Assembly (NCBI GenBank): GCA_000175855.1
Contig: ACYB01000023.1
Coordinates: 1 to 20,392, forward strand
Direction: 5' to 3'
From: Raphidiopsis brookii D9
GTDB taxonomy: Bacteria; Cyanobacteriota; Cyanobacteriia; Cyanobacteriales; Nostocaceae
Length of the DNA stretch: 20,392 nucleotides
Shown here piece by piece: positions 984 to 20,391 of the stretch. Position 1 is the first letter of the stretch. Every line of letters begins with the position of its first letter. The translations under genes were made by a program, and so were the position numbers. Under the pieces are notes generated by a model. It did not search any database. It was not told where the DNA came from and was given only the letters and a program-made list of their open reading frames with translations.

Positions 984-2396
984 TCACAAATCATAATTAT
1001 GAATATATTTTTTCAGCTCTTCATGTACAGACGACATGAGACTTGCCTTTTCTAATGAGTTAAATTCCTGTTTGGTAATAAAGTTTAAACAACTGATAAT
1101 TTTATTTTGCCACTGGCTATAATCCTTAGCTTTCCATATTTCAAATACTTCTTGTTGTTCTTTTAAGCCTCTTAAATTATGAAATAGGTCATTTCTTTGT
1201 TTGGATGTATGATCTCTAAATATTCTTATATCTGGACTCGATTCCCAGTTTGGTAAAACTGAATCAATTAAATCACGAATATTTTTGTGTTCATAATATT
1301 GGGTATCTCTATCTCTTAATAAACCTTCAATAGCACGAAAACTATGAAATAAAGATTCTACATAGTCACCTTGCCTAAATCTGACTACAGCTAGGTAACC
1401 AGCTTCATAACCCATCCACCACCATTGCTGGGTCCGGTTTTTAGTTTCTTGATTGATGGCATTTATGGCTTTGCCAAAATCACCCAAATTAGTATTATTC
1501 CAATCAATGGCTATTGCCAGTAATTTTTCTATCAATTCTTTGGTTCTTGTTTTATTAGCTTCCAAAGACTGATTGTTAGATTGACTTTTCCAAAGGTGAT
1601 TTTTAAATATTTTTTCTACTCCATGGTAATCATATCTATCTAGTAGTTCTTTAGCTTCTTGTATTCTTAGTCCAATGAGATAGTTGGAGATCGGAACAGT
1701 AGTTATGTCTTTTTGATATTCATTACTGACTAAAAACTCGACCTGGGTTTCAAATTTGGCTAAGCTGGCAAACTGTACTGCTGAAGAAATGGCTGGGGTA
1801 CCTGCTTGGTGACTAACAAAAATTTTCTCTTTTTTATTGATGTTGTTAATATTTTGCTCAAATAATCTGTTTACTAATCTTAAACACTTATCCCAGTTAT
1901 CTATACCTTCACTGGGGGAGCTAGGTTCTATTTCTAGGTACTCAATTTCTCCTTTAAATTGGGAGAATTTTTCTTGAAAATATTTTTTAAAAATTGGTTT
2001 TAATTTACAGGTATCTTGCCAATAGGGACATTTAGGATCTTGTATTTCTTCTGAGGTAAAGACATTTTTTTGATTTGTTAGTATCATAATAATTCTCTCT
2101 ACACCTAAATTTTTATGGTTGTTTTGAGATTTTAAGTGTTCTGTAAAATTATCTAGGAGCGGAAATGATAAATCCTCAAAGTTATCATCTAGTTGATCTT
2201 CATATACTATTCCTAAAACTCTAGCAGCAGTGCTATAACCTGCATCTTGATTTCTAGGATCTATACGATTGAGAGATCCAAAATGCCAACAGTCTAATTT
2301 ATCTGCTTCTTGTGCTTGTTCATATAGTCTGGACCAACTATAATCCTCTTTGAGGATGACATCACTATTACCAGCTGTCACTATCCAAATAGTCAT
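984..2396 (-). CDS. csx1: CARF-HEPN ribonuclease, Csx1/Csm6 family (cyclic-oligoadenylate-responsive effector candidate)
   Basis: The 470-aa ORF has an AGGAG Shine-Dalgarno sequence before the ATG. The N-terminus MTIWIVTAGNSD and the later FVSHQAGTPAISSAVQFASL resemble the two signature strands/loops of CARF Rossmann domains. The C-terminal part carries RNDLFH (1179..1196), which fits the HEPN R-x4-6-H motif in the R-N-x3-H form typical of Csm6/Csx1. It is the last gene of the cmr operon. Confidence 0.75.
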   Translation of the reverse strand: MTIWIVTAGNSDVILKEDYSWSRLYEQAQEADKLDCWHFGSLNRIDPRNQDAGYSTAARVLGIVYEDQLDDNFEDLSFPLLDNFTEHLKSQNNHKNLGVERIIMILTNQKNVFTSEEIQDPKCPYWQDTCKLKPIFKKYFQEKFSQFKGEIEYLEIEPSSPSEGIDNWDKCLRLVNRLFEQNINNINKKEKIFVSHQAGTPAISSAVQFASLAKFETQVEFLVSNEYQKDITTVPISNYLIGLRIQEAKELLDRYDYHGVEKIFKNHLWKSQSNNQSLEANKTRTKELIEKLLAIAIDWNNTNLGDFGKAINAINQETKNRTQQWWWMGYEAGYLAVVRFRQGDYVESLFHSFRAIEGLLRDRDTQYYEHKNIRDLIDSVLPNWESSPDIRIFRDHTSKQRNDLFHNLRGLKEQQEVFEIWKAKDYSQWQNKIISCLNFITKQEFNSLEKASLMSSVHEELKKYIHNYDL

Positions 2397-2484: not shown

Positions 2485-4128
2485 TTAACCTCCCCATAAT
2501 TTGGTAAATTCGCTGTTTGGGGTGGCTAAAAAATCCAGAAATTGTCTGGTCCTATCATTTCCGTCTGGAAAAATTGTTAGTAACTCTACGTATTCTGATC
2601 CAACTCGACGAATGCTTCCCTCTTTTGTTTTTTTGTAATGGGGATACATACGATGATAAATTCTGCCAATATTACCCATTCTACCAGTTAAACTGGACCC
2701 TTTGATTGATTGTGATTGAGTGTTATTTTCAAGGTATGGACCGTGAAACCAACCCACGGCTAAACTATCATCTTCATCATCGGCTAAACGTCCCCAAATC
2801 TGCACATTCTGACGGTGAAAAGATTCTATCCAGGGACCCTTTTGATCAGTTATTTTTTTACCTCTAAAGGTTAACCAATCTCTGACACTCTGATGAACAT
2901 TATCAATGATATCTCTAACATGTTCAATCTTGTTAACAGGAAAATAATACTTAGAGGATTGCTCAGTAAATTCCCAGTGACAACCAATCATGGGTTTATT
3001 CTCTCTTTCTAAATATTCGGGGAAAAAGATTCTATGATCTACCCTACGCCAGGATTTACCAAAACCACCGATTAACAAAGTAAAGCGCAAAATTTTTGTC
3101 GCCAAAGATTTCAGTTTATTTCTATATTCGGTGGAATGATTTTTCATGGCAAGAATATTTAAAGTACCTCTCTTTAAATCATATATTGGCATGGCAACTC
3201 TATTATATCTAAACCTACCCATCTCCAATTCTTGAGCATGAAAAGCAATGCCTAAATCTCCCACAATTGCACCCCTAGCTCCTGCGAATCCTCCCCACAA
3301 TTCTTTGGTTAATTCTTCCGCTGTCCTCTCATCGGTGACTGCACTAAATAACCGCAGAGTATGACCACGTAAAGCTGCTTTAAACATGTTCGGGCGAAAT
3401 TCAGGGGTACCGTCTATATCTATTAATTTTGAAGCTAGACCTGTTCCCTTTAATTCCACACTGATTAATTGAGTTTCTGGATGATTGATAGTTTGACCAT
3501 AGCCAGCACTGACTCTGGAACCTATACCCTTTCCTATTGCTCTCTCCCAAATACTCCAAATAGTTGCCCACTCATCATCATCCAGTTGAATAGCACTGGA
3601 AATACCAAAGACTAACATTGGTTGATGGAGAGAAACTTGTAAAAAAGCAGAATGATTTCCATTATGTCTGACTTGCCATTCTTGTTGAGGATGAACTATG
3701 TCAATTAATGGTGCTTGAGACCAGTTTCTATCTGAAGGATATGCACCGTGAAAACGCAAAATCCCTGGTTGAGTGTCATTCGCCTTTTGGGCTCCACAAT
3801 ATCTCATAGCCTGTTCCTTGGTGCAACTTCTTAAAAATGCTCCTTTCATACTCGCACCGGGATAATAGGGGAAACCATTAGCACCAATTACAGGTCTGAT
3901 GATATCATCATCTTGTCCACTATTAGAAACAAAACGCCAAGAAATCTGGTATTCTCTGGTCTGAACATGATCACCAAATCTAGGTCGGTTTACGTTTACA
4001 GCTTCACTCCATTCGTTAACCCATCTTTCTGACTGTTGTGGTTCTTGGGCATATTGAATTTGTCCTCTTCCTTTAATTTGTGCTTGGAACATTAAAGGTA
4101 CTTCATTAGTATTCACCATCACTATCAC
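2485..4128 (-). CDS. cmr6: double-RAMP protein, Cmr6-like N-terminal half fused to Cmr1-like C-terminal half
   Basis: The ORF encodes 547 aa. The first RAMP unit has GFPYYPGASMKGAFLRS plus the G-rich loop GKGIGSRVSAGYGQ (aa ~85-212). The second unit has EFRPNMFKAALRGHTLRLF, ELWGGFAGARG and LLIGGFGKSWRR (aa ~220-370), followed by a Cmr1-length tail. It overlaps the cmr5 stop by 23 nt. The ATG at 4119 has a better-spaced AGAGGTGA and may be the true start. Confidence 0.6.
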   Translation of the reverse strand: MIVMVNTNEVPLMFQAQIKGRGQIQYAQEPQQSERWVNEWSEAVNVNRPRFGDHVQTREYQISWRFVSNSGQDDDIIRPVIGANGFPYYPGASMKGAFLRSCTKEQAMRYCGAQKANDTQPGILRFHGAYPSDRNWSQAPLIDIVHPQQEWQVRHNGNHSAFLQVSLHQPMLVFGISSAIQLDDDEWATIWSIWERAIGKGIGSRVSAGYGQTINHPETQLISVELKGTGLASKLIDIDGTPEFRPNMFKAALRGHTLRLFSAVTDERTAEELTKELWGGFAGARGAIVGDLGIAFHAQELEMGRFRYNRVAMPIYDLKRGTLNILAMKNHSTEYRNKLKSLATKILRFTLLIGGFGKSWRRVDHRIFFPEYLERENKPMIGCHWEFTEQSSKYYFPVNKIEHVRDIIDNVHQSVRDWLTFRGKKITDQKGPWIESFHRQNVQIWGRLADDEDDSLAVGWFHGPYLENNTQSQSIKGSSLTGRMGNIGRIYHRMYPHYKKTKEGSIRRVGSEYVELLTIFPDGNDRTRQFLDFLATPNSEFTKLWGG

Positions 4129-4531
4129 CTCTATTTTTATAACGTTGAGTCCACCAAACTAGACTGTCACAAAATTGGGTCAAAACTGCTAAACAAATCC
4201 GCTGATCTTCAATAGATAAACTCCACAATCTACTGGCATAATCCTGCACTACTCTAGTATTAGCTGTATCTACTTCTTCCTGAGGTAATTGGATACCTGC
4301 TGTTTTCATAATGTTTACGAAGGCTTTCCAAGTGGCTTGCCAATATTTACCTTTTTCTTTCTCATCATCATTTTTACCTAGCAGTCGCAACTGCTCACCC
4401 CAAAATCTTTCCAGTCCATAGGCTACGGTGCTACGCATTTTGTGGGATTGACCAATTACACCCTGTTTACCACGATAGAATAGAACTAATTTTTGGGCTT
4501 CTCGGTCCAGGTTATAAGACTTCCAACTCAT
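4106..4531 (-). CDS. cmr5: type III small subunit, Cmr5-like
   Basis: The 141-aa product is predicted to be all-helical and lacks a RAMP motif. An AGGAAG Shine-Dalgarno sequence precedes the start. It occupies the canonical cmr5 slot between cmr4 and cmr6. The assignment rests mainly on position and size. Confidence 0.5.
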   Translation of the reverse strand: MSWKSYNLDREAQKLVLFYRGKQGVIGQSHKMRSTVAYGLERFWGEQLRLLGKNDDEKEKGKYWQATWKAFVNIMKTAGIQLPQEEVDTANTRVVQDYASRLWSLSIEDQRICLAVLTQFCDSLVWWTQRYKNRGDSDGEY

Positions 4532-4555: not shown

Positions 4556-5424
4556 TTAGTTAATATTTACTTGACCTTTGAGTGTCAATTCACAATGACC
4601 AAAACCTATGGACTCTAAACCCCCTAAATAAATGTCAGCTTTATCCCCACTCGCAAATGGTTGGAATTTTTGGTTTTTAGATTGGTCAGATTTGTCTTCT
4701 CTGATAGCTAGGGGAAATACTAAAATTGTCCCCTCTGGCAATGCTTCAGTATTGAAAAACCACCGCCTTCAACTACTTTTTGTTCTGATTTTAAACGGAC
4801 ACGACTTTGACGATATAATGCCATATCGTGAATCATTCCAATGTCTCCATCATTGACGATTACTGCTGGTCTTTCTTGCAGGTCAGGAAACCAGGGGGAT
4901 AAATTTTTGGTTGTGTTAATTTCTAGGAACCCGAGGTTAAAGAAGATGGTTTTTCTACCTCCTGGTGCTTGTTTGGCAATCAATTTCTCTCCACCTGTAT
5001 ATGGATCTGGTATGGGAATGTCTTTGAGGTATTTATCCTTACCCTCCTTTATTTGCACTTGAATACTATCTCCAGCTATGCGCTGATAGCGTTTCAATAA
5101 CCTTGGGGAACTTACCCAGACGATGGGTTGACCTGGACAGAAAACGGGAATCCAAATAATGGAAGCATATTCAAATTTGACGATAGATTCGTTATTACTA
5201 TCATCGTCTGCTCCATTTCCATACCAGTAATTAGCTTCTGATTCTCCTTTACTATTACGCATTTCAGCACGCAATCGACCGCGAATAGAACTACCGGGAA
5301 TAATTCCAGTTTGGGTAAATTGGTCGCGGAAAATTAGGTTTAAATTACCACTTTCTTCTCCTGCGGTAGCACCCACATGAAGCGGTGCTAGGGTTTCAAT
5401 AATACCATAGGCTTTTGTGTACAT
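4556..5424 (-). pseudogene. cmr4: Cmr4 (Cas7-family backbone RAMP); reading frame broken at a T5 run as sequenced
   Basis: ORF 4720..5424 begins MYTKAYGIIETLAPLHVGATAG...IIPGSSIRGRLR, a RAMP signature, and ends ...VVEGGGFSILKHCQRGQF*. The adjacent frame is open from just after GGG and reads FFNTEALPEGTILVFPLA...IYLGGLESIGFGHCELTL (ORF 4556..4741). That is the conserved Cmr4 C-terminus. One extra T in the T5 run (plus-strand A5 at 4755..4759) fuses both pieces into 289 aa, the normal Cmr4 size. Confidence 0.8.
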
Positions 5425-5425
5425 T

Positions 5426-6479
5426 TTAGTTAACTCCCTGAATTGTTATTGGTAAACACAAACCACAACCGACTTTTTTGAGACTGTAACCCTCTTCGGG
5501 AAACCATTTTTCATTCCATTCCCACCATGATTGATTAATTGGTTCTTTGAGGATGTAAACACTACCTGCGGGTACAGCATAACGTCCCCTCCCTAGGGTT
5601 CCCTGGGAACGAAACCGGTAGGGAACAGGTTTATCTGTGAGCATCTGCATCACCTGGGGGAATTGATGATTGTTGTTATGACCATGATTATCACCATGAT
5701 GGGGAATATCATGATCACTGTCATTGCTGTATAGAGGTTGACGTTGAGAAATCCGGTTAGAACCCCAAACTGCTGGTGTAATTAAGGCAAAACTTTTACT
5801 GATGGGTTGATGGAAAAGTTTGGTGATTTCCGCAGGTAGTTTTTTGGATTCTATTTGTACAATGTGATTTTCACCTCCAAATTTATACCACCCTGACTCT
5901 ATGGGGTAGGTGGATAAATAAATTAAACAAATGTCATCGGGAAGCTGAACTGAGTTTTCTAAAAACAGTCCATCTGTTTTTTCTACACATCTTTCTGCTG
6001 TTTGAATTTTGGGATGGAGAAAGGAAACAAATTTCCAGGGATTGGTGGCAACTGCGTCATTTTTGACTAGTTCTTGGCTGGATATTTGCCAGGACTTGAT
6101 CGTTTGCCATTGATAATCAGATTCTAGTTTTTCTTTGTTTTTTTTCCAAGTACCATTCTTCTTTTTCTACGCTCCATTCTCGAACTTCTTTTTGGGTGAT
6201 GATTTTATGTTTGGGTATGGGAACAAAAAAGTTATTTTTATCTTGAGATTTTGCCCAAAAAGGTCCTGCTACATACAGATTATCCCTTAATTCAGACTGG
6301 GATAATTTGTTTTTGACCTTGTTAATGCTAAACATAAGACCTGCTAAGGTAGAAGCATCGGGAGGAAATTTAGCACCAGAACGACCAACTAAATTTTCGG
6401 GGGATAAAAATGCCCCCGCACTCCCATACATAAATCCCAGAGGACTAATACTAATCAAGTATTTGAACATAAGTGCCAA
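5426..6479 (-). pseudogene. cmr3: Cmr3 (Cas5-family); reading frame broken at an A8 run as sequenced
   Basis: ORF 6117..6479 contains the Cmr3 N-terminal motif FKYLISISPLGFMYGSAGAFLSPENLVGRSGAKFPPDASTLAGLMFS. It stops 18 nt after an A8 run (plus-strand T8, 6138..6145). I hand-translated the next frame from ~6168 to 5426 and found no stops. It ends with LITPAVWG...GRGRYAVPAGSVYIL...GCGLCLP, a Cmr3-type C-terminus. Deleting one A gives a single 350-aa ORF. Confidence 0.75.
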
Positions 6480-8041
6480 CCTACTTTAACTAAATCTGTA
6501 ATCCAATCGACAATGGCTTTTGCTCTGTCTATTTCATTACTACCATCGGGATATCCCGACAGATGTTGGGCAAATTTATCCCGTTCTCTTTCGCTATCTT
6601 GAATTAATTTTTTACCTTCACCGGGAAAGTAAAGATCAAAAAATTCTAAGGCAGTTTGTTTGACAATTCGCGCTTCACTGGGGGTTTCAATGGTGAGCGC
6701 TCGTCGAGATTCTAAGTAGGCTAAGTCTTGATAAATATGACTCCAATTAGATTCTTGTTCTCGATCTCGATATTTGTCTAAAATATCTAAGTAATCCCAG
6801 GGACAGGTCCACTGAATGTATTGACCGCTATTAAATGCTACTCGAATGGTGACTCTATCTCTTCCTAGGGACTTAGCCGTTTTTTCAGCTTCTCGACAAT
6901 GTTGTAAAACATCTCTCTGGGGTACGCTACCAGCTACCCACACAAAACCTACACTTAGGGTAATTTTTTGTTCGTGTTTTTGCCATGTTTTTGGTAGATC
7001 TTGTAACCATTGGTAAGCTGTAGAGGGAGCAATTTTTTCCCTGGGATACTCATCACTATAAATGATTCCTAAAAAATCATCACCTCCAGCATAAACTACT
7101 CTACCTAATTTTTGTCTTAGGTTGAATTCATCATCAAATCTTTTACCCCATTTCCGCATGGCTTGACTAAAGTTTTTGATTTCATCGTCGGGATTTTCTC
7201 CACTGGCTAATTGCTGTAAATGAGCTCCTACTCTGTCGCCATCTCCCATAAACCATCCCGTCCACTGTCCCTTTGTGGTTTCTGTGGGTTTACGTTGAAT
7301 TTCTCTGAAACCTACATGCAGTGATTCTATACCAATTTTTTGTTGAATTGGTTTCCAGGTTACCAGACGTTTAACCAGTTCAGGAATACTCAGTTTTTCA
7401 TTCAGTGCAATAAATTTGCCTTCTGGATTTTCTTCTTCTTCATTTTCAGTGACTCTTGCTAGATGTTCATAAAATCCTCGAATTCCTTGGTCTTCCCATC
7501 CATAATTTAGATTTTTAGGATTGCGATGACTAGCACCTAATTCGGGAAAAGCAATACCATCAGTACCGGTTAAACTGGAACTTTCACCAATCCAATTGAT
7601 GGCACTCCAGTCACGGGACAATTTTTTTGTTTCTAAATTGTTCATAGCACCAGCAATGCTATCTCCCACCCCTCGGAATATTTCCCAAGTGTGAGAACCC
7701 CATAAATTCCATTCTCTTTCCCAGTAATAGGAATTTTGAATTTCAGTTTCTATCCACTCTCGACAAATTTTCAATACTTCTTTCCAGGCTGAAATTATAA
7801 TGTCTCTTGCTGTTTCTTGACTCATTTCTCCCCTCATTAAAATCCGGTTTGGCATTCCTTTTTGTAAGTTGGGAAGTGCAGGGGAGATCAGCTCCAGGTC
7901 TGTCTGTTGATTAACATAACTGGCTATTTTTTGACTTAAGTATGATAAAATCAAGGATGCACCGTATAGATCACGCAATTTTCGCGACTTTTCTATGAAT
8001 CCTTGTACAGGAGCAAAGGTGACGGCAGTGTATTTAGCCAT
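6455..8041 (-). CDS. cas10: Cas10/Cmr2, short form lacking the HD nuclease domain, GGDD cyclase motif intact
   Basis: The 528-aa product starts directly with MAKYTAVTFAPVQGFIEKSRKLRDLYGASLILSYL, the conserved start of the first palm-like domain. The palm-2 metal motif is WFMGDGDRVG and GGDD is in VVYAGGDDFLGI (7076..7087). I see no H-D dyad region and no CxxC...CxxC zinc-finger cluster. It is the first gene of the cmr operon and overlaps the cmr3 start by 25 nt. Confidence 0.85.
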   Translation of the reverse strand: MAKYTAVTFAPVQGFIEKSRKLRDLYGASLILSYLSQKIASYVNQQTDLELISPALPNLQKGMPNRILMRGEMSQETARDIIISAWKEVLKICREWIETEIQNSYYWEREWNLWGSHTWEIFRGVGDSIAGAMNNLETKKLSRDWSAINWIGESSSLTGTDGIAFPELGASHRNPKNLNYGWEDQGIRGFYEHLARVTENEEEENPEGKFIALNEKLSIPELVKRLVTWKPIQQKIGIESLHVGFREIQRKPTETTKGQWTGWFMGDGDRVGAHLQQLASGENPDDEIKNFSQAMRKWGKRFDDEFNLRQKLGRVVYAGGDDFLGIIYSDEYPREKIAPSTAYQWLQDLPKTWQKHEQKITLSVGFVWVAGSVPQRDVLQHCREAEKTAKSLGRDRVTIRVAFNSGQYIQWTCPWDYLDILDKYRDREQESNWSHIYQDLAYLESRRALTIETPSEARIVKQTALEFFDLYFPGEGKKLIQDSERERDKFAQHLSGYPDGSNEIDRAKAIVDWITDLVKVGWHLCSNT

Positions 8042-8175
8042 AATTGGGTGTGTCTTTCACTTGTCTATAATATACATGCTAAAAGTTGTACGGCTTATTT
8101 GTGACACGGTTTGTAACAATTAGTTATATAAGTAAACATTCTTGGTCACAATTATTAAGGTGTTGACTTTTTGGA

Positions 8176-8238
8176 GTAGTTTTTGTGGTAGTTTTCGTAG
8201 ATATATATAGGGATATATCAAGAATTATCAAGAACTAT
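8176..8238. repeat. stack of short tandem direct repeats in the cas10 / kinase-WYL divergent intergenic region
   Basis: Three repeat pairs are visible: GTAGTTTT at 8176 and 8188 (period 12), GATATAT at 8200 and 8212 (period 12), and TATCAAGAA at 8216 and 8226 (period 10). Any regulatory role is conjecture. Confidence 0.3.
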
Positions 8239-8326
8239 GAATGTTTTCTGGCTTTGTTAGATTTTGAGTTGCTTGTGTTACGTTTTTATCCTACACTGAG
8301 AATTTGGGTTGTAAATCTCTGCTCAT

Positions 8327-8352
8327 GCGAATGACAAAATTTTGTCGTTCGC
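8327..8352. promoter_or_regulatory. 26-bp near-perfect palindrome upstream of the kinase-WYL gene (operator or 5'-UTR hairpin candidate)
   Basis: The sequence is GCGAATGACAAAA|TTTTGTCGTTCGC. Twelve of 13 positions are complementary, and the single exception (T8332/G8347) would be a G-U pair in plus-strand RNA. It ends 25 nt before the ATG at 8377. Confidence 0.35.
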
Positions 8353-8376
8353 TGGAAAACTCTGGATTTCTACCCC

Positions 8377-10560
8377 ATGGTTAAAGCGAAAATAGTAGAC
8401 AAGTGTTCAATATCAACTAGTGTTATGTCAACTAGTCTTATATGCCATTTTTTAATTGGTCTCCCCGGTAGTGGTAAGTCCACTTTTGCTGCTCAGTTAG
8501 CTGGGTTGGGCAATTATCGCATTGTCTCTACCGATGCTATTCGTGAGGAATTATATGGAAACCAGTGTATTCAGGGTGATTGGACAAAAATCGAAGCTAG
8601 GGTAATATGTGACATTGTTGCTGCTACTAAAAATGGCTATCGTGTAATTTATGATGCTACAAATACCAGAAGAGTATGGAGACTAGATTTTTTAGAAAAA
8701 ATAAGTTTCCATCCTAGTTTATCCGTATTGTCTTCTTCTGTACAATGGATGGCCTGGTATTTAAAAACCCCTATAGAAATTTGTAAATATCGAAATCAAC
8801 AACGCAGTCGTCGGGTTCCAGATACAGTAATTGATGAAATGTACAGGAATTTGGAAAAATTTCCTCCCATTCCTGCTGAGGGATTTATAACTGTTAAAAA
8901 CATTTATGATAGTCTTGACAAGAATAAAGATGTTAATTTTCATGCTATGGGTTTTAATTTGGCGGAAATTATTGGTGAAATTAACCGGGTAGATAGAACA
9001 TCAATTAACCGCAGTAATCGTAATTCTCACATTAATCTCCATAGTTATAGTAAACTACGGGATTTTGAAAGACTGATGTATTTACTTTCTTTGATTATTC
9101 ACTATCCGGGAATTGGTAATTTACAATCAACCAACCCTAAGTTTTTAAATAGTATTTTTGGAGAGACTTCTAAGTTTGCCGATTCTTTGGCAGAAATTAT
9201 TGCTTTTATGGTCAAACTACATGGTAGTGTTTATGCTGATAGAAAGGCTATTAGTGCAGATTTACTATGGTTAGAAAAAAATTCATTTATTGGTGTGAAC
9301 ACTACAGCTAGATCAGGTTTATTGCCAATTGATATGGGAGAATATTTAGGTGATTTTCCTTTGTATTTGCCAACTCATGCTTATTCAGATTTACCAGCTT
9401 TTGAAAGATTGCTATACATAATTCAGTTCATTTTGCATCACCCATTTTCAGATGATCATTTAAATCATAACTCAAACCCTCGTCACAGTTCACTACAGAG
9501 TTTAATATCGGGGATGATAGAGCATAAAATGATTACTGGAAATGTTTTCAACTCCATACGTAAAGATATTGAGAAAGTTCTTAAACCCTATAAAATTCTA
9601 CCTAATTTCCCTATGCGTGATGGTTACTTTGCTGGAACTGCGATTTTATCAGACTTGGAATTAATTCAGGTTTTACAACTCCTACAATCTCAAGCTAAAA
9701 GTTTAAATGACCCGGTTACTTTAGAAATTTATGAGAAGTTTTCTGAGCGCATGCAAAAAGCTAAATTGGCAGATTCTGTTTATCCTGTTAGAGGGATTGC
9801 CAATCGTAGTATAATAGATCCTGAGTATTTACCCCCTGAATCCCTGAGCAGAAATACAGCAGTGCTAGAACAGGGGATCGCCGGGGGAAAGCTATTAGAA
9901 TTAAACCGATTTTCTGGTGTTGGTAAATTTGAGGGAGAGGAGACAGGATTCTTTTTAGCATTTCCATTGCAAATAGTTTTTCATAACCTGGCATGGTACT
10001 TAGGATATGAATTAATGAGTGGTGAAGAAAAGGGTTTATTAGGATTTCAAAGACTAGATAGATTGTTTATAGGTCGACCTCAAAACAAAACTCGTTCTCA
10101 AGAGGAACAGCAAGCAGCATTAAATAGATTGCAGATGCTCTGCGAATTTTGTGGAGGCATATTTTTGGGTCATTCTTATCAAGATCAAAAGCAATTCCTG
10201 GATGGCAATGAAACAGAGAAAGCACGTGTTTCGATGATGGTAGAATTGTGGTTTAATGACAAAATGTTCAGCTTTATAGCGGAGGGAACGAGAAGATTTT
10301 CCCCTCCACAGATGAAAATGTCATTACCGACAGTGGGTAGAAAATTAACCTTGCCCAAATCTATCTTCCGTTTGAAACCAACAGGAGATCTCAAATTTCC
10401 CCACCGGTTTCGGGTAACTTTACCTAAGTGGTGTGAAAAAGATGTTGAATTGGTAAGGTGGATTCTAGGTTTTCAGGGAGGTGTGAAAGTTGTCAAACCT
10501 CAATCATTAGCTGACCAAATTAAAAAAATTGGGGGAGACATACTTAATATTTACAGTTAA
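8377..10560 (+). CDS. fusion protein: Pnk/Pnkp-type P-loop polynucleotide kinase + two wHTH-like repeats + WYL domain + WYL C-terminal extension
   Basis: - **Kinase module (aa ~22-175).** It has Walker A GLPGSGKST (8458..8484), VSTDAIRE (Asp/Arg after the P-loop), IYDATNTRR, and the lid CKYRNQQRSRRVPDTVIDEMY. This is the same motif series I recall from T4 Pnk and Clostridium thermocellum Pnkp kinase modules.
- **Helical repeats.** Two internal units open with LRDFERLMYLLSLIIHYP (aa ~226) and LPAFERLLYIIQFILHHP (aa ~339). Each ends in an 'x-I-[SR]-x-D-[LI]' helix.
- **WYL domain.** LELNRFSGVGKFEGEETGFFLAFPLQIVFHNLAWYLGYELMSGEEKGLLGFQRLDRLF (about 9883..10071).
- **C-terminal extension.** The terminal VELVRWILGFQGGVKVVKPQSLADQIKK resembles the WCX extension of WYL proteins.
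- **Start codon.** It may instead be the ATG at 8425 (MSTSLICHFLIGLPGSGKST). Confidence 0.75.
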   Translation: MVKAKIVDKCSISTSVMSTSLICHFLIGLPGSGKSTFAAQLAGLGNYRIVSTDAIREELYGNQCIQGDWTKIEARVICDIVAATKNGYRVIYDATNTRRVWRLDFLEKISFHPSLSVLSSSVQWMAWYLKTPIEICKYRNQQRSRRVPDTVIDEMYRNLEKFPPIPAEGFITVKNIYDSLDKNKDVNFHAMGFNLAEIIGEINRVDRTSINRSNRNSHINLHSYSKLRDFERLMYLLSLIIHYPGIGNLQSTNPKFLNSIFGETSKFADSLAEIIAFMVKLHGSVYADRKAISADLLWLEKNSFIGVNTTARSGLLPIDMGEYLGDFPLYLPTHAYSDLPAFERLLYIIQFILHHPFSDDHLNHNSNPRHSSLQSLISGMIEHKMITGNVFNSIRKDIEKVLKPYKILPNFPMRDGYFAGTAILSDLELIQVLQLLQSQAKSLNDPVTLEIYEKFSERMQKAKLADSVYPVRGIANRSIIDPEYLPPESLSRNTAVLEQGIAGGKLLELNRFSGVGKFEGEETGFFLAFPLQIVFHNLAWYLGYELMSGEEKGLLGFQRLDRLFIGRPQNKTRSQEEQQAALNRLQMLCEFCGGIFLGHSYQDQKQFLDGNETEKARVSMMVELWFNDKMFSFIAEGTRRFSPPQMKMSLPTVGRKLTLPKSIFRLKPTGDLKFPHRFRVTLPKWCEKDVELVRWILGFQGGVKVVKPQSLADQIKKIGGDILNIYS

Positions 10561-10711
10561 CCGATATTAGAAATTGATTTAATATGGTATATTTATTAGT
10601 GTGGTATATTTTGTTCGTGTAACCTCGTGCCAAACGTGTTAAAAAGCTATAAAGGTTAACAAATAACTCCCAGACCAATAATATTAGAGATAAGCCCCTT
10701 GAGGTTTCCCT

Positions 10712-11383
10712 ATGTCCATATTCTGGCGTAAAGTGCTACAACTTCATCAAACCTATCTACTGCTAATGGCGATTGTGCTTGGTTTAAGTATCTTTTTCCA
10801 TGGGGTGGGTGTACATTCCCTGAGTCTAGGTTTGGGCAGCATTATTGCTGTGGGAATGGTAATCGCTTGGCTTTATTCATTATGGTTACAAATCAGTGCA
10901 AACTCTGTCAACCTGCTTGATACTGATAATTTCCGGCAACGGTTACAAAAAATTAGCAGTGATATAAGTAACAAATCAACTACGGAATGGCAAAAAGCAC
11001 AAACCTATGCCATTGAAAGTCATCAACTGTGTCAGGCAATTGTGACTCAAGAGAGCATTTTAACAGCGGAAATATTAGAAACCCTGTACACAGTTTTGAA
11101 TTTATCTGAGCAGGTAATTCATGCTATTTTAGCCCTGAAACAGGTTAAAACCGAGCGCTATCGCACTCTGACTAGAAATCACCTTCAAACAAGTTTAGAT
11201 CGCCTAAAAACTACTCACCATAATTTGCAACAACTTCAAGATCAAGTACTATTATCTTCGTTAGACAAAAATACGGTAAATACTGAATTTCCCCTGTTTT
11301 TAAAAACCCTGATCCAAGAAAATCGTTCTGTTGTGCAAACCATTATTCAAGACTCCACTCTAGCAAAGGAAAATGAATCATGA
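10712..11383 (+). CDS. membrane protein with two N-terminal TM helices and a helical cytoplasmic tail (possibly TelA/XpaC-like)
   Basis: The 223-aa product has hydrophobic segments LLLMAIVLGLSIFFHGVGV and LGSIIAVGMVIAWLYSLWL, followed by about 150 aa of heptad-like helical sequence. Its stop overlaps the ATG at 11380 as ATGA. The TelA/XpaC resemblance is only a guess from architecture. Confidence 0.55.
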   Translation: MSIFWRKVLQLHQTYLLLMAIVLGLSIFFHGVGVHSLSLGLGSIIAVGMVIAWLYSLWLQISANSVNLLDTDNFRQRLQKISSDISNKSTTEWQKAQTYAIESHQLCQAIVTQESILTAEILETLYTVLNLSEQVIHAILALKQVKTERYRTLTRNHLQTSLDRLKTTHHNLQQLQDQVLLSSLDKNTVNTEFPLFLKTLIQENRSVVQTIIQDSTLAKENES

Positions 11384-13136
11384 AAAAGACTATGGAGAAG
11401 ATGATAAAGAAGAATATATTCCCATTTTTTCCCTACTGGGACTGTGTTTGGTACTACTAGGTTCTTGCTCCGATATTCCTAAAGTTAGCTCGCTTGAAGA
11501 AGCAGCTCAGGTTTTACAAAAAAATGTCTTGCCACAAATTTCCATAAAAGATCAATTAGTTACCGATACCACTGCCCAGAGCTACTCTATTAAATCTGTA
11601 CAAGATCCTCTGCCATCTTTAGATAAATACCCTATTTATGGTCCACCTGACAGCATAAGTGCTGAAAATGTTTACCTGGAAATTTTTGGTTCCGCAGATA
11701 AATCCAATCCCCAGAAAGAAGATGAAAGGTGGCTAATTGATGTGGTAGATCAATTCAACGCTAAAAATCTAAAAACCTCTTCTGGTAAATTAATTCAGGT
11801 GGGTGTTCGCAATATTCCTTCCGGTATTGCTCAACGTATGATCGAAGCTAAGGTAGTTAAACCTACTGCTTATACCCCTTCCAATGAATTATGGATTGCT
11901 CTGCTGAAAAATGCAGGAGTTCAGATGGATATGGTGACCCCTAAACTCTTGCCAAATCAACCTGGTTTTATTTTAAATCAACAGGCCAAACAAGAAATTT
12001 TTGGCTCACAAGCAGTTACCTTTGATCGATTACTAGATGCGATTGTAGCGGGCAAGTTATCCGTGGGTTATACTAATCCCTATAGCAGTTCTAGTGGATT
12101 AAATCTCCTGTATACAATCTTTTGGCGGGGGGCGGGTCATCAACAAAGTGGGCAAACCCTAACCACTCTGGATTTACAATCCCCCAAAGTCAATTCTTTA
12201 TTTCAAGCCTTTCAAAAACAAGTTTTGGTGACAGGATTGACTACACTGGAACTAAAGGATATTTCCATAAGAGATCCTAAAAAGTTATCTGTTTTTGTCA
12301 GTGAAGGATTGACCTTTAATTCCTTGAAAAAAATTCCCGAATTTGCTAACTCCAGTTTTATTCCCTTTGGTGTTCCCCATAATAATCCTCTGGTTAAATT
12401 TAAGTGGACAACTCCGGAACAACAGGAGGGTTTAGAACTATTTGCTAAATTTGCTCAATCTGATCCAATGCAAAATTTAGCACCTCGGATGCCCCCAGAA
12501 GTTGCCCAATATCTCGCCCAAAAACAAGTTCCTCCTATTCCTTCTGGCGAGGTTTTAAGTTTAGGGCAAACATTTTGGAAAACACAAAAGGATGCGGGAA
12601 AAACCGTTTATTTAATGACGGTTATTGACACCAGTGGATCCATGTCTGGAGGTCCTTTAGAAGCAGTTAAAAATGGTTTACGAATTGCCAGTCAACAGAT
12701 TAATCCGGGAAATTATGTGGGCTTAGTCAGCTATGGGGATCAACCCATTAATTTAGTCAAATTGGCCCCCTTTGATGACCTTCAGCACAAACGTTTTTTG
12801 GCAGGGATAGATGGTTTAGAAGCAGACGGTGCCACAGCAATGTATGATGGCGTAATGGTAGGTTTGTCCGAATTGCTACAACAAAGAAAAACCAATCCTA
12901 ATGGCAAGTTTTATTTGTTATTACTGACTGATGGTCAAACTAATCAGGGGTTCAACTTTGAACAGGTAAAAGAGATTATTGAATACAGTGGTGTAAGGGT
13001 TTATCCCATCGCCTACGGTGAAGTCAATGAAGCAGAATTAAATGCGATCGCAGCTTTGCGGGAATCTACTGTGAAAAAGGGAACTCCTGAAAATGTGCAA
13101 GAGTTACTCAAGGGATTATTCCAAGTCAATTTATAA
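11373..13136 (+). CDS. von Willebrand factor A (vWA) domain lipoprotein with a periplasmic-binding-protein-like N-terminal region
   Basis: The lipobox is LVLLGSC. The C-terminal vWA domain has the MIDAS motif in VYLMTVIDTSGSMSGGPL, followed by DGATAMYDG and LLLLTDGQTNQG. The middle region (YTPSNELW...VGYTNPYSSSSGLNLL) looks like a solute-binding protein. See the finding on the start codon for the 5' end. Confidence 0.8.
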   Translation: MNHEKDYGEDDKEEYIPIFSLLGLCLVLLGSCSDIPKVSSLEEAAQVLQKNVLPQISIKDQLVTDTTAQSYSIKSVQDPLPSLDKYPIYGPPDSISAENVYLEIFGSADKSNPQKEDERWLIDVVDQFNAKNLKTSSGKLIQVGVRNIPSGIAQRMIEAKVVKPTAYTPSNELWIALLKNAGVQMDMVTPKLLPNQPGFILNQQAKQEIFGSQAVTFDRLLDAIVAGKLSVGYTNPYSSSSGLNLLYTIFWRGAGHQQSGQTLTTLDLQSPKVNSLFQAFQKQVLVTGLTTLELKDISIRDPKKLSVFVSEGLTFNSLKKIPEFANSSFIPFGVPHNNPLVKFKWTTPEQQEGLELFAKFAQSDPMQNLAPRMPPEVAQYLAQKQVPPIPSGEVLSLGQTFWKTQKDAGKTVYLMTVIDTSGSMSGGPLEAVKNGLRIASQQINPGNYVGLVSYGDQPINLVKLAPFDDLQHKRFLAGIDGLEADGATAMYDGVMVGLSELLQQRKTNPNGKFYLLLLTDGQTNQGFNFEQVKEIIEYSGVRVYPIAYGEVNEAELNAIAALRESTVKKGTPENVQELLKGLFQVNL

Positions 13137-13147
13137 GGTACTATTAA

Positions 13148-13564: not shown

Positions 13565-13640
13565 CCATCTAATTATTGGCACAAAAGAGAATTTTTAATA
13601 GACATCTCCCCCATATGGGATCATACCTCAAGTAATAATT

Positions 13641-20381: not shown

Positions 20382-20391
20382 ACCAAAGTGA
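19987..20391 (+). CDS. DUF456-like paralogue, shortened at both ends (possibly a pseudogene)
   Basis: The ancestral ATG at 19954 is followed immediately by TAG (CAA in copy 1). The ORF restarts at the Met equivalent to Met12. It diverges after ...ITVGTL and stops at 20389..20391, against 172 aa in copy 1. Within the open part, synonymous differences (~10) and non-synonymous differences (~9) are about equal in number. Confidence 0.5.
   Translation: MFLGIIGAVVPVIPGSSLILISIIIWGIVSNSFAAIKIPLIVTIIVLLLSTGVGFFAGYIGAKQAGASKWGQIGAFVLLMGFFGLLPTLSFGGPLLGILFGPLLGAIVGEFLYQRRLCPAVKAGIGITVGTLPK

What the first reader, a model, noticed from the sequence alone, without database searches (positions are those of the whole stretch)
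8377..10560. Polynucleotide-kinase / double-wHTH / WYL fusion protein transcribed divergently from cas10
**What the sequence shows.** One 727-aa polypeptide contains two parts:
- A complete P-loop kinase motif set of the T4 Pnk / bacterial Pnkp type: GxxGSGKST, S-x-D-x-x-R, DATN, and RN-x-x-R-x-R-x-V.
- A ligand- or nucleic-acid-sensing WYL domain with its C-terminal extension, preceded by two copies of a helical FERL[ML]Y-type unit that look like winged-helix domains.

**Context.** WYL proteins are established regulators or accessories of defence loci. Examples are the HTH-WYL repressor of a Synechocystis CRISPR locus, WYL1 with Cas13d, and BrxR/CapW. I know of no described type III accessory that couples WYL to a 5'-OH polynucleotide kinase.

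**Why the pairing is suggestive.** The only effector nuclease in the adjacent operon is a HEPN RNase, and HEPN cleavage leaves 5'-OH and 2',3'-cyclic phosphate ends. The fusion could sense or re-phosphorylate the RNA ends produced by Csx1, acting in RNA repair or reset. It could also regulate the cmr operon in response to RNA damage, or modify a signalling nucleotide.

This is my best candidate for an undescribed functional module in the window.
Basis: partly seen in the sequence, partly recalled or inferred. Interest (0 to 1): 0.85.

Follow-up and report, generated by a model that had tools for sequence, protein, structure and literature searches.

The report
Kinase–WYL accessory protein of cyanobacterial CRISPR
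This gene encodes a fusion, found only in cyanobacteria, of an intact polynucleotide-kinase-type enzyme to a WYL nucleic-acid-sensing module; it sits next to type III-B CRISPR / Csx1 RNase genes in most genomes sampled and no paper I could search describes it.

Summary
The ORF (8377-10560, +, 727 aa) is real.

- **Kinase domain (aa 21-180).** It is a P-loop kinase. Its best matches by sequence profile and by predicted fold are 5'-OH polynucleotide kinases (C. thermocellum Pnkp, mammalian PNKP, T4 Pnk) and the tRNA kinase PSTK. All catalytic motifs are at least 90% conserved in 55 homologues.
- **C-terminus (aa ~506-727).** It is a PafBC-like WYL-WCX module.
- **Middle region.** It contains two copies of a helical "H-x-Y-S...FERLxY" unit. 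A winged-helix fold could not be confirmed.
- **Distribution.** The family has about 250 clusters at 50% identity, and every named member is cyanobacterial.
- **Genomic context.** In 17 of 22 orthologous loci, Cmr genes lie within 10 kb. The gene is either divergent from cas10 or placed directly after a CARF-HEPN csx1, and often abuts the CRISPR array.
- **Related forms.** Kinase-less paralogues sit next to III-B adaptation (csx18-cas1-cas2) modules. Synechocystis has the kinase alone beside its III-Bv array.

I read it as a new accessory variant: a WYL-coupled RNA-end kinase/regulator. Its substrate and its role (decay, repair or regulation) are inferred, not shown.

The parts
8377..10560 (+). 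Kinase-WYL ORF, 727 aa. The conserved start may be Met17 at 8425.
   Evidence: More than 370 homologues at about 97% coverage. AF2 model mean pLDDT 79.3.
8437..8916 (+). P-loop polynucleotide-kinase-type domain, aa 21-180. Motifs: P-loop at 8458-8484, S-T-D-x-x-R at 8527-8544, DATN at 8653-8664, lid RNxxRxRxV at 8791-8817.
   Evidence: Pfam AAA_33 E 3.9e-18. Profile against PDB: CthPnkp 2.8e-13, with D53/R56 aligned to its SSDFCR and the lid aligned to RNKNRTDRQV. Foldseek 4gp6: E 1.3e-8, TM 0.76, rmsd 2.4. Motifs at least 90% conserved or invariant.
9037..9282 (+). Helical repeat unit 1, aa 221-302 (H-S-Y-S...FERLMYLLSLIIHYPG...).
   Evidence: Internal repeat with unit 2. Helices modelled with pLDDT above 90. 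27 of 82 columns at least 90% conserved. No Pfam or Foldseek match.
9373..9651 (+). Helical repeat unit 2, aa 333-425 (H-A-Y-S...FERLLY...RKDIEKVLKPYKIL). It is also the N-terminal unit of the kinase-less WYL paralogues. It is a possible degenerate wHTH.
   Evidence: Alignment A4 with about 400-aa WYL proteins. Only sub-threshold collinear alignment to the first helix of the PafC/PafBC wHTH. Fold not confirmed.
9892..10086 (+). WYL beta-barrel domain, aa 506-570. W540-Y541-L542 are invariant, as are R559, L560, D561, R562 and L563 of the FxRLDRL motif.
   Evidence: PADLOC WYL E 3.8e-11. Pfam WYL in 33 of 55 homologues. PafBC WYL aligned. Beta strands in the model. The most conserved region of the protein.
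10228..10557 (+). WCX (WYL C-terminal extension) domain, aa 618-727.
   Evidence: Pfam WCX hit (E <= 0.1) in 55 of 55 homologues. PafC WCX aligned, E 0.0023. Foldseek PafBC 9fnd, E 1e-6.
8042..8376 (.). Divergent intergenic region between cas10 and the kinase-WYL gene.
   Evidence: Alignment with L002 and L003 shows two conserved blocks in otherwise diverged sequence.
8327..8352 (+). Inverted repeat GCGAATGACAAAA/TTTTGTCGTTCGC. It contains the conserved GTnnTTCGC element. It is a candidate operator or 5'-UTR hairpin.
   Evidence: RNA fold -18.9 kcal/mol, z -5.1. GTnnTTCGC found 13 times in the 250 nt upstream of the gene across 23 loci, against 0.87 expected.
6455..8041 (-). cas10/cmr2. Short form of 528 aa, no HD domain, GGDD present.
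   Evidence: PADLOC Cas10b E 1.9e-224. Pfam Cmr2_N and palm2. Sequence.
4559..6479 (-). cmr3 (5429-6479) and cmr4 (4559-5424). Each is split across two reading frames here.
   Evidence: tblastn with the intact L002 proteins. PADLOC Cmr3 and Cmr4 hits.
2485..4531 (-). cmr5 (4106-4531) and cmr6 (2485-4128).
   Evidence: PADLOC Cmr5 E 3.7e-63, Cmr6 E 1.1e-224.
984..2396 (-). csx1, a CARF-HEPN RNase with the motif RNDLFH.
   Evidence: PADLOC CARF_HEPN E 5.4e-137. Sequence.

Best explanation
**What it is.** The gene encodes a dedicated accessory protein of cyanobacterial type III-B (Cmr + Csx1) CRISPR loci. It combines two functions in one chain.

- **C-terminal two thirds.** Two helical repeat units, then WYL, then WCX. 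This part is a relative of the HTH-WYL-type proteins (the kinase-less paralogues) that sit beside III-B modules. I infer that it binds a nucleic-acid ligand. [quoted passage not shown] It probably also binds DNA at the conserved GTCATTCGC-type element in front of its own gene.
- **N-terminal domain.** A catalytically intact kinase of the 5'-OH polynucleotide kinase clade.

**Proposed mechanism.**
1. Target recognition by Cmr triggers cOA synthesis by the HD-less Cas10.
2. Csx1 (HEPN) and Cmr4 cut RNA, leaving 5'-OH and 2',3'-cyclic-phosphate ends.
3. The WYL module captures or senses such fragments.
4. The tethered kinase phosphorylates their 5'-OH ends.
5. Most likely this commits the fragments to 5'-monophosphate-dependent decay (RNase J / RNase E). 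It would also make them unusable by RtcB-type ligases. Classical repair seems less likely because no ligase or phosphoesterase partner is conserved nearby.
6. Ligand occupancy may feed back on expression of the locus.

**Shown:** domain identities, conservation of catalytic residues, the genomic association, and the conserved upstream element.

**Inferred:** the substrate (RNA 5'-OH), the ligand of the WYL domain, DNA binding, and the physiological outcome.
For: **Kinase class.**
- Pfam AAA_33.
- Best NCBIfam hits are PSTK and bacterial Pnkp.
- Family profile against PDB: CthPnkp 2.8e-13, PSTK 3e-12, Pnkp1 9e-9, T4 Pnk 2e-4.
- The Foldseek top 10 are Pnkp and PNKP kinases.
- Phage 'polynucleotide kinase' proteins match at 33-38% identity.
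- Metagenomic relatives include HD-kinase fusions.

**Activity is retained.** The P-loop, D53, R56, D93 and the lid arginines are at least 90% conserved or invariant. All domains are about equally conserved.

**WYL-WCX.**

**Association with type III-B.**
- Cmr genes lie within 10 kb in 17 of 22 orthologous loci, in two different arrangements.
- In the co-directional arrangement the immediate upstream neighbour is a CARF-HEPN Csx1.
- In Microcystis, a CARF-HEPN gene is the only cas-type neighbour.
- CRISPR arrays abut the gene in 8 loci.

**Independent lines.**
- Kinase-less relatives of the C-terminal half sit next to III-B csx18-cas1-cas2.
- A stand-alone kinase (36% identity) follows the Synechocystis III-Bv array and is co-transcribed with neighbouring genes.
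- The upstream element is enriched about 15-fold.

[quoted passage not shown] WYL domains are described as ligand sensors in defence loci (PMC4012209).
Against: - No biochemical data exist for any member.
- The nearest sequence relatives include PSTK, a tRNA-aminoacyl kinase, so the acceptor need not be a 5'-OH end.
- No conserved 2',3'-phosphoesterase or ligase partner was seen, so the idea of a repair pathway has no support from gene context.
- Five of 22 orthologous loci, and both distant Cyanobium relatives, lack cmr genes within 10 kb. Two of these pair the gene with a retron-type reverse transcriptase instead.
- One distant member has lost the P-loop. The non-kinase part can therefore function alone.
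- The HTH fold, and hence DNA binding, is unconfirmed.
- In this window cmr3 and cmr4 appear frameshifted.
- The sample of loci is modest and was not drawn at random.
Confidence: 0.45

Rival explanations
1. It is primarily a transcription factor of the PafBC/BrxR/CapW type. It would repress or activate the cmr-csx1 operon, the CRISPR array or itself. The kinase domain would serve only as an NTP-binding switch or sensor, not as an enzyme acting on immune products.
For: - WYL-WCX homology to PafBC.
- Divergent position next to cas10 in many loci.
- Kinase-less paralogues occupy the classic regulator position.
- A conserved upstream element and hairpin.
- A distant member without a P-loop.
- A WYL protein, sll7009, represses a Synechocystis CRISPR system (PMC4012209).
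Against: - Full conservation of the acceptor-side catalytic residues (D53, R56, lid arginines) is not needed for a mere NTP switch.
- The stand-alone kinase in Synechocystis shows that the kinase is linked to III-B loci on its own.
- In several genomes the gene is the last cistron after csx1 with a gap of under 100 nt, like an effector.
- The HTH is not detectable.
Confidence: 0.25
2. It is a signal-nucleotide kinase. The kinase would phosphorylate linear oligoadenylates (ring-nuclease or Csx1 products such as A2>p or A4>p, which have a 5'-OH) or another small nucleotide. This would tune or terminate cOA signalling, with the WYL domain binding the oligonucleotide.
For: - Cas10 keeps GGDD and Csx1 has a CARF domain, so cOA signalling is expected.
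- In L012 the neighbours include CARF-PD-DExK and Csx3-AAA.
- WYL domains are proposed to sense cyclic oligonucleotides.
- Short oligonucleotides are legitimate Pnk substrates (established knowledge of T4 Pnk).
Against: - No similarity to known nucleotide kinases was better than to Pnk or PSTK.
- The family also occurs with retron-type reverse transcriptases and in islands without Cas10.
- Nothing here distinguishes long RNA from short RNA as the substrate.
Confidence: 0.12
3. It is a tRNA-directed kinase. This would be either PSTK/KTI12-like action on a tRNA, or healing of tRNA halves made by HEPN anticodon cleavage, in the manner of T4 Pnk against PrrC.
For: - PSTK is the best single-sequence hit. 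The alignment extends through the helical linker to aa 219.
- KTI12 is hit in all 55 homologues.
- HEPN RNases such as Cas13 cut tRNA (abstract of bioRxiv 10.64898/2025.12.03.690598).
Against: - Scores are far below the PSTK family cut-off (56.6 against 290.5 bits).
- The C-terminal tRNA-binding domain of PSTK is absent.
- No ligase partner is present.
- With a family profile, CthPnkp overtakes PSTK.
Confidence: 0.1
4. It is a zeta-toxin-like small-molecule kinase acting as an abortive-infection toxin under WYL control.
For: - Weak Zeta_toxin Pfam hits in 24 of 55 homologues (best E 5.6e-4) and in slr7095.
- One paper calls slr7095 toxin-antitoxin related (PMC7283877).
Against: - The window protein itself has no Zeta_toxin hit at E <= 1.
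- No zeta or PezT structure appears among the PDB hits.
- slr7095 is not in the later Synechocystis toxin-antitoxin tables that I could search.
Confidence: 0.04

Closest known systems
5'-OH polynucleotide kinase domains: C. thermocellum Pnkp, T4 Pnk, mammalian PNKP, HD-Pnk
   Same: - Same P-loop kinase fold: Foldseek TM 0.76, rmsd 2.4 Å over 164 alignment columns.
- Same motif set: GxxGSGKS/T, D-x-x-R, DATN, lid R-x-x-x-R.
   Different: - No phosphatase, HD or ligase domain.
- Sequence identity is only 20-25%.
- It is fused to a WYL-WCX module.
- Activity is untested.
PafBC / BrxR / CapW / DriD-type HTH-WYL-WCX transcription factors
   Same: - WYL beta-barrel plus WCX extension.
- Located beside the defence operon it may control.
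- Kinase-less paralogues have the same approximately 400-aa layout.
   Different: - Carries an N-terminal enzyme domain and a duplicated helical unit.
- The wHTH is not detectable by Pfam or Foldseek.
- No DNA-binding data.
WYL1, the accessory protein of Cas13d (type VI-D)
   Same: A WYL-domain accessory protein of a CRISPR system whose effector is a HEPN RNase.
   Different: - WYL1 has no kinase.
- It boosts Cas13d directly.
- It belongs to a different CRISPR type and a different lineage.
HEPN nuclease + polynucleotide kinase pairs: Las1-Grc3, and PrrC versus T4 Pnk/Rnl1
   Same: Same logic: HEPN cleavage leaves a 5'-OH, and a kinase then phosphorylates it to allow exonucleolytic decay (Grc3/Rat1) or ligation (T4).
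   Different: - Grc3 belongs to the Clp1 kinase family.
- The pairing here is only genomic: csx1 is adjacent or in the same locus. It has not been shown physically or biochemically.
Synechocystis slr7095, a stand-alone kinase downstream of the III-Bv CRISPR3 array
   Same: - 36% identical to aa 2-181.
- Also lies at a type III-B(v) locus.
   Different: - 171 aa, with no WYL part.
- Flanked by DUF6717 and AlkB.
- Uncharacterised.
Type III accessory cluster 36, 'HTH-WYL' (Shah et al. 2018; PADLOC PDLC01046)
   Same: A cyanobacterial WYL protein associated with type III loci. One copy lies directly downstream of the kinase-WYL gene in L010.
   Different: A different family. The window protein matches only the generic 162-position WYL model, not PDLC01046.

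Membership tests
5'-OH polynucleotide kinase clade (Pfam AAA_33; Pnk/Pnkp type) | Walker A P-loop GxxGxGK[ST] | tested here: met
   GLPGSGKST at aa 28-36. At least 90% conserved in 55 homologues.
5'-OH polynucleotide kinase clade (Pfam AAA_33; Pnk/Pnkp type) | Acceptor-side general-base Asp and phosphate-binding Arg (D-x-x-R after strand 2) | tested here: met
   D53 and R56 are at least 90% conserved. They align with SSDFCR of CthPnkp.
5'-OH polynucleotide kinase clade (Pfam AAA_33; Pnk/Pnkp type) | Walker-B-like Asp and lid arginines | tested here: met
   Y92-D-A-T-N96, N140, R145 and V147 are invariant. R143 is at least 90% conserved. The lid aligns with RNKNRTDRQV of CthPnkp.
5'-OH polynucleotide kinase clade (Pfam AAA_33; Pnk/Pnkp type) | Fold and profile are closer to polynucleotide kinases than to small-molecule kinases | tested here: met
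   Foldseek ranks 1-10 are Pnkp and PNKP. In the profile search: Pnkp 2.8e-13, PSTK 3e-12, T4 Pnk 2e-4; adenylate-kinase-like hits at 4e-3 or worse.
5'-OH polynucleotide kinase clade (Pfam AAA_33; Pnk/Pnkp type) | ATP-dependent phosphorylation of 5'-OH RNA or DNA | not testable with these tools
   Needs an enzyme assay.
Bacterial Pnkp (kinase-phosphatase-ligase; NCBIfam TIGR04075) | Three-domain architecture and a score above the family cut-off | tested here: not met
   33.1 bits against a cut-off of 750. Only the kinase part matches, and there is no phosphatase or ligase domain.
PSTK (TIGR03574) | Score above the equivalog cut-off, and a C-terminal tRNA-binding domain | tested here: not met
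   56.6 bits against a cut-off of 290.5. The C-terminal part is WYL-WCX instead.
HTH-WYL-WCX regulators (PafBC/BrxR/CapW type) | WYL Sm-like beta-barrel domain | tested here: met
   PADLOC WYL E 3.8e-11. Pfam WYL in 33 of 55 homologues. W540-Y-L542 invariant. PafBC WYL aligned.
HTH-WYL-WCX regulators (PafBC/BrxR/CapW type) | WCX C-terminal extension | tested here: met
   WCX hit (E <= 0.1) in 55 of 55 homologues. The window protein scores 22.5 bits against a cut-off of 23.9. PafC WCX E 0.0023.
HTH-WYL-WCX regulators (PafBC/BrxR/CapW type) | [quoted passage not shown] | tested here: inconclusive
   [not shown]
HTH-WYL-WCX regulators (PafBC/BrxR/CapW type) | Sequence-specific DNA binding and ligand-controlled transcription | not testable with these tools
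   There is only indirect evidence: a conserved upstream GTCATTCGC element.
Type III CRISPR accessory genes | Conserved genomic association with type III effector modules across diverged genomes and gene orders | tested here: met
   17 of 22 orthologous loci have Cmr genes within 10 kb, in both divergent and co-directional arrangements, across Nostocales, Oscillatoriales, Chroococcales and Leptolyngbya.
Type III CRISPR accessory genes | cOA-sensing domain (CARF or SAVED), as in most characterised accessory effectors | tested here: not met
   No CARF or SAVED hit in Pfam, NCBIfam or PADLOC. The sensor domain is WYL.
Zeta toxin / small-molecule P-loop kinases | Significant match to Zeta_toxin, gluconate kinase or shikimate kinase models or structures | tested here: not met
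   SKI E 0.23 and no Zeta hit for the window protein. These structures rank below all Pnk-type hits.

The most novel reading that the evidence does not exclude
The protein is a WYL-gated RNA 5'-kinase that works as the downstream partner of the cOA-activated HEPN RNase Csx1. It would sense cleavage products with 2',3'-cyclic-phosphate and 5'-OH ends and phosphorylate them. This would channel cut RNA into 5'-P-dependent decay by RNase J/E and block RtcB-type repair, while also reporting RNA damage back to the locus promoter. That would make it a bacterial counterpart of the eukaryotic Las1-Grc3 nuclease-kinase pair, and the first RNA-end-modifying accessory enzyme of a type III CRISPR system.
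Probability: 0.25. Interest if true: 0.8.

Novelty: new variant of a known kind. Interest (0 to 1): 0.6.

Why it matters
**Gap it could fill.** Characterised type III accessory proteins are nearly all nucleases, proteases or pore-formers switched on through CARF or SAVED domains. An accessory enzyme that modifies RNA ends and carries a WYL sensor would add a new step to type III immunity. That step concerns what happens to the 5'-OH / 2',3'-cyclic-phosphate fragments left by Csx1 and Cmr4: clearance, repair, a block on repair, or feedback signalling.

**It is testable.** Full-length copies are present in the model cyanobacterium Picosynechococcus PCC 7002 (pAQ5 and pAQ6). A kinase-only version sits next to the well-studied III-Bv system of Synechocystis 6803. 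Together these offer a ready experimental system.

**Wider relevance.** It also broadens the range of enzyme domains known to be fused to WYL domains. The 2014 survey of WYL architectures lists nucleases, helicases and nucleotidyltransferases but no kinase.

Tried and rejected
- **Wasted genome scan.** I ran the genome-contig scan with the single protein instead of an alignment. I had to take context from the look-up of encoding contigs, plasmid records and a metagenome scan instead.
- **Metagenome scan with alignment A1.** It mostly returned kinase-only relatives through the P-loop pattern. Only two were full-length. The kinase-only relatives showed no cas neighbours.
- **Rosetta-stone test.** I tested whether Synechocystis slr7094 (DUF6717) or slr7096 corresponds to the central units of the fusion. 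They do not.
- **Hen1 test.** I tested whether the downstream methyltransferase in PCC 7002 is Hen1-like. It has no PDB sequence match. It matches the PADLOC model C3a159, labelled 'methyl transferase', a name also listed in Shah 2018's table of type III accessory clusters.
- **Intergenic region.** Rfam, tRNA and tandem-repeat scans of the window and of the intergenic region were negative. The ...TTCGCACCA element is not a tRNA remnant that ARAGORN can detect.
- **Zeta-toxin or gluconate/shikimate kinase assignment.** Rejected on scores.
- **Phage origin.** Rejected. Phages carry only kinase-domain relatives.
- **Literature gap.** Burroughs & Aravind 2016, the survey of RNA-repair systems, is not in the library. 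I cannot exclude a prior mention of a Pnk-WYL fusion there.


Full report
**1. The observation**

The window has one uninterrupted ORF at 8377-10560 on the + strand (727 aa).
- GLPGSGKST (aa 28-36)
- STDAIR (aa 51-56)
- DATN (aa 93-96)
- RNQQRSRRV (aa 139-147)
- FERLMY (aa 230-235) and FERLLY (aa 342-347)

- Pfam assigns aa 25-160 to AAA_33 (E 3.9e-18).
- Pfam gives a near-threshold WCX hit at the C-terminus.
- PADLOC's CRISPR-associated WYL model covers aa 488-722 (E 3.8e-11).

The gene is divergent from a type III-B cassette on the - strand:

| Gene | Coordinates |
|---|---|
| cas10/cmr2 | 6455-8041 |
| cmr3 | fragments up to 6479 |
| cmr4 | up to 5424 |
| cmr5 | 4106-4531 |
| cmr6 | 2485-4128 |
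| csx1 (CARF-HEPN) | 984-2396 |

Cas10 is a short form without an HD domain but with GGDD.

**2. The kinase domain**

- *Single-sequence searches.* The best hits are PSTK and bacterial Pnkp in NCBIfam. Both are far below the family cut-offs, so this is not an orthologue of either. In the PDB the hits are PSTK, Pnkp1, CthPnkp and T4 Pnk.
- *Family profile.* With a 55-sequence profile the order becomes C. thermocellum Pnkp kinase (2.8e-13), PSTK (3e-12), Pnkp1 (9e-9), T4 Pnk (2e-4). No small-molecule kinase scores better than 4e-3.
- *Residue alignment.* That alignment places D53/R56 on the SSDFCR motif of CthPnkp, D93 on its DATN, and the lid on RNKNRTDRQV.
- *Predicted fold.* An AlphaFold2 model (mean pLDDT 79, above 90 for most of the kinase) gives Foldseek top hits to CthPnkp (E 1.3e-8, TM 0.76, rmsd 2.4 Å). 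These are followed by mammalian PNKP, PSTK, Pnkp1 and T4 Pnk.
- *Other relatives.* Bacillus phage proteins annotated as polynucleotide kinase match at 33-38% identity. Metagenomic relatives include kinase-HD fusions resembling HD-Pnk end-healing enzymes (the HD-Pnk comparison rests on my own knowledge).
- *Conservation.* In the 55-sequence alignment the P-loop and S51, T52, D53 and R56 are at least 90% conserved. Y92-D-A-T-N96, R99, R102, N140, R145 and V147 are invariant.

The domain is therefore a selectively maintained enzyme of the polynucleotide/tRNA-kinase clade.

**3. The rest of the protein**

*WYL and WCX.* The WYL barrel (aa ~506-570) is the most conserved region. W540-Y541-L542 and the RLDRL residues (R559-L563) of the FxRLDRL motif are invariant. 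WCX is hit (E <= 0.1) in all 55 homologues and WYL in 33 of them. PafBC chains are Foldseek hits at E about 1e-6. A profile that includes kinase-less relatives aligns the WYL and WCX parts to PafBC and PafC.

*The two central units.* Between the kinase and the WYL domain lie two helical units, aa 221-302 and aa 333-425. Their first 23 residues are 52% identical. Both are well conserved.

Unit 2 is also the N-terminal unit of about 400-aa kinase-less WYL proteins (28% identity over aa 330-726). Its third helix plus the following loop, 'LRKDL..LR.YGIL....YR.GY.LGTG', resembles the recognition helix and wing of HTH_11-type regulators. That is my reading of the pattern.

The winged-helix fold is not confirmed:
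- Pfam detects no HTH.
- Foldseek of a dedicated model of aa 208-480 (pLDDT 79) finds nothing in the PDB.
- The alignment to helix 1 of PafC is sub-threshold.

**4. Family and distribution**

- The word-indexed search found 373 clusters at 90% identity. The best 120 are all at least 46% identical, and almost all cover about 97% of the query. They are named 'WYL domain-containing protein', 'AAA family ATPase' or 'predicted kinase', and come from Nostocales, Oscillatoriales and other cyanobacteria.
- An exhaustive HMMER search with aa 201-727 against 1.84 billion representatives found only 254 hits (110 below 1e-30). Most are 650-750 aa with an N-terminal domain of about 170 residues.
- Even members at 28-31% identity, where named, are cyanobacterial (Cyanobium).
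- One of them has lost the P-loop.

**5. Genomic context**

I examined 22 loci encoding orthologues at 40-92% identity. I used Pfam annotations, RefSeq annotations and tblastn with Cas proteins.

*Loci with Cmr genes within 10 kb: 17 of 22.*
- Divergent from cas10: L002; Cylindrospermum PCC 7417; Calothrix PCC 6303; L015; C. aponinum; Euhalothece; Leptolyngbya BL0902; and, at a distance, an Aphanizomenonaceae plasmid.
- Co-directional after cmr6-csx1: two Microcoleus loci; L014; PCC 7002 pAQ6; PCC 7003; Nostoc UHCC 0870; Planktothrix.
- Cmr genes within 10 kb but in neither arrangement: L010 (cas10 about 9 kb downstream, beyond RT, cas1, cas2 and an array) and L012 (cmr6 about 8 kb upstream).
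- In the co-directional loci the immediate upstream gene is a CARF-HEPN Csx1 (PADLOC E 1e-130 to 1e-164).

*Further links to type III loci.*
- In Microcystis a CARF-HEPN gene is the only cas-type neighbour.
- CRISPR arrays with a GTTTCCATTAATTC...AAAG repeat directly flank the gene in 8 loci.
- The kinase-less paralogues lie divergent from csx18-cas1-cas2 of III-B loci.
- Synechocystis 6803 has a stand-alone kinase (slr7095, 36% identity) just after the CRISPR3 (III-Bv) array. It is co-transcribed with slr7094 and a newly defined small ORF.

*Exceptions.*
- pAQ5 of PCC 7002 and a Geminocystis plasmid pair the gene with a retron-type reverse transcriptase and a hypothetical gene.
- L013 and Stanieria show no cas genes.
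- Two distant Cyanobium relatives sit in other defence islands.

*Assessment.* A ±10-kb window is under 1% of these genomes, so 17 of 22 is a very strong association. This is my inference and not a formal test. The persistence of the link across two different gene orders argues for a functional link.

**6. Cis-element**

The divergent intergenic region has diverged between this window and Cylindrospermum except for two blocks. One is TTTGTAACAATT (8110-8122). The other is an inverted repeat, GCGAATGAC...GTCGTTCGC (8327-8352). Its loop is 24 nt longer in Cylindrospermum.

Both versions fold into hairpins more stable than shuffled controls (z -5.1 and -3.1).

The half-site GTnnTTCGC, usually GTCATTCGC(ACCA), occurs 13 times in the 250 nt upstream of the gene across 23 loci, against 0.87 expected. 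It usually lies 60-100 nt before the start codon. It is absent where the gene follows csx1 closely.

This fits an own promoter, an operator or a 5'-UTR element. It is neither a tRNA nor an Rfam family. What it does is unexplained.

**7. Mechanism**

*Shown:*
- an intact Pnk-type kinase is covalently joined to a WYL-WCX sensor;
- the fusion belongs to cyanobacterial III-B/Csx1 loci;
- each half also occurs separately at such loci.

*From established knowledge:*
- HEPN RNases and Cmr4 leave 5'-OH and 2',3'-cyclic-phosphate ends.
- Pnk-type enzymes phosphorylate 5'-OH ends.
- RNase J and RNase E prefer 5'-monophosphate substrates, while RtcB needs a 5'-OH.
- WYL domains bind single-stranded nucleic acids or are predicted to sense cyclic-ended RNA and cyclic oligonucleotides (PMC4012209; PMC9503650).

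*Preferred model (confidence 0.45).* The WYL part senses or captures cleavage products and the kinase phosphorylates their 5' ends. I lean towards 'mark for decay / prevent re-ligation' over classical repair, because no ligase or cyclic phosphodiesterase is conserved nearby. Feedback on transcription through the upstream element is possible.

*Rivals:*

| Rival | Confidence |
|---|---|
| A pure PafBC-like regulator with the kinase as a switch | 0.25 |
| A kinase for linear oligoadenylates or signal nucleotides | 0.12 |
| A tRNA-directed kinase | 0.10 |
| A zeta-like toxin | 0.04 |

**8. Comparison with what is known, and novelty**

- It works like a Pnk, but it is not a Pnkp or a PSTK, since the family cut-offs and architectures are not met.
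- It carries the WYL-WCX hallmark of PafBC/BrxR/CapW regulators, but the defining HTH is unverified.
- It meets the operational definition of a type III accessory gene but lacks CARF or SAVED domains.
- PADLOC has no dedicated model for it. Shah et al.'s 'HTH-WYL' cluster (PDLC01046) is a different family that can sit next to it.
- The 2014 WYL survey lists fusions to nucleases, helicases and a nucleotidyltransferase, but no kinase.
- Full-text searches for WYL together with kinase, Pnk, AAA_33 or type III terms found no description.
- One relevant survey, Burroughs & Aravind 2016, could not be read.

I therefore class it as a new variant of a known kind: a WYL-type CRISPR accessory/regulator that has acquired an RNA-end kinase. 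It is not categorically new, and it is not new as a sequence.

**9. Caveats**

- All functional statements are inferences.
- The locus sample is modest.
- Residues 1-20 may not be translated.
- In this particular window cmr3 and cmr4 are each split over two frames relative to a 96%-identical locus. Here the Cmr complex may be defective, or the assembly may carry indel errors.

Noticed in passing
window 4559-6479 (- strand): cmr4 and cmr3 are each split across two reading frames compared with the 96%-identical locus L002, where they are intact (301 and 332 aa). These are either real pseudogenisation of the Cmr core or indel errors in the assembly. The kinase-WYL gene, cas10, cmr5, cmr6 and csx1 are intact.
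   Followed up: partly
window 1-20392: The 20-kb window has no CRISPR array, cas1/cas2 or cas6. In 8 of 22 orthologous loci an array (repeat GTTTCCATTAATTC...AAAG) lies directly beside the kinase-WYL gene. These repeats share an AATTAATGGAAAC-like core with the Synechocystis III-Bv array. That system is reported, to my knowledge, to use RNase E instead of Cas6.
   Followed up: partly
window 8327-8352; also L003, L005, L010, L015, L064, L065, L069 at -60 to -230 from the start codon: A conserved element GTCATTCGC(ACCA) lies upstream of the kinase-WYL gene (13 hits against 0.87 expected). In some loci it is one arm of a hairpin with a variable loop. Its function is unknown. It ends like a tRNA 3' end, but ARAGORN finds no tRNA.
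   Followed up: partly
window 8110-8122 and 8142-8154: TTTGTAACAATTA and TTGGTCACAATTA form a direct repeat 32 nt apart, on the cas10 side of the intergenic region. The first copy is conserved in Cylindrospermum. It may be a regulator site for the cmr operon.
   Followed up: no
L061 (PCC 7002 pAQ6) 12177-13701; L071; L060; L059 (pSYSA) 11638-13717: In Picosynechococcus the kinase-WYL gene is followed by a methyltransferase matching the PADLOC model C3a159 (a cluster name also in Shah 2018's type III accessory table) and by an AlkB dioxygenase. In Synechocystis the stand-alone kinase slr7095 is followed by a hypothetical gene and by AlkB slr7097. This may be a kinase-methyltransferase-AlkB module for nucleic-acid modification or repair.
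   Followed up: partly
L060 (pAQ5) 7993-12067; L067 (Geminocystis) 7500-11540: A retron-type reverse transcriptase (PADLOC RT-Protease/RT-TIR/RT-Toprim models, E about 1e-138) plus a hypothetical protein of about 260-300 aa precede the kinase-WYL gene, with no cmr genes nearby. The fusion may therefore also serve a second kind of defence system.
   Followed up: partly
L010 12209-13711: A second WYL protein (500 aa, PADLOC HTH-WYL PDLC01046, E 6e-126) lies directly downstream of the kinase-WYL gene. This recalls the paired PafB/PafC arrangement.
   Followed up: no
[not shown]
   Followed up: partly
window 10712-13564 (+): Three co-directional genes lie downstream: 223 aa with a weak DUF6232 hit, 587 aa with a VWA domain, and 138 aa. 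They are conserved only in the closest relative, L002, and not in other orthologous loci. They are probably an unrelated module.
   Followed up: no
window 13641-14159 and 19987-20391; 16224-18461: Two DUF456 paralogues flank a block of otherwise housekeeping-looking genes: ferritin/Dps, nucleoside phosphorylase, ATP sulfurylase and a 745-aa caspase-domain protein. Homology to L002 ends near 13609.
   Followed up: no
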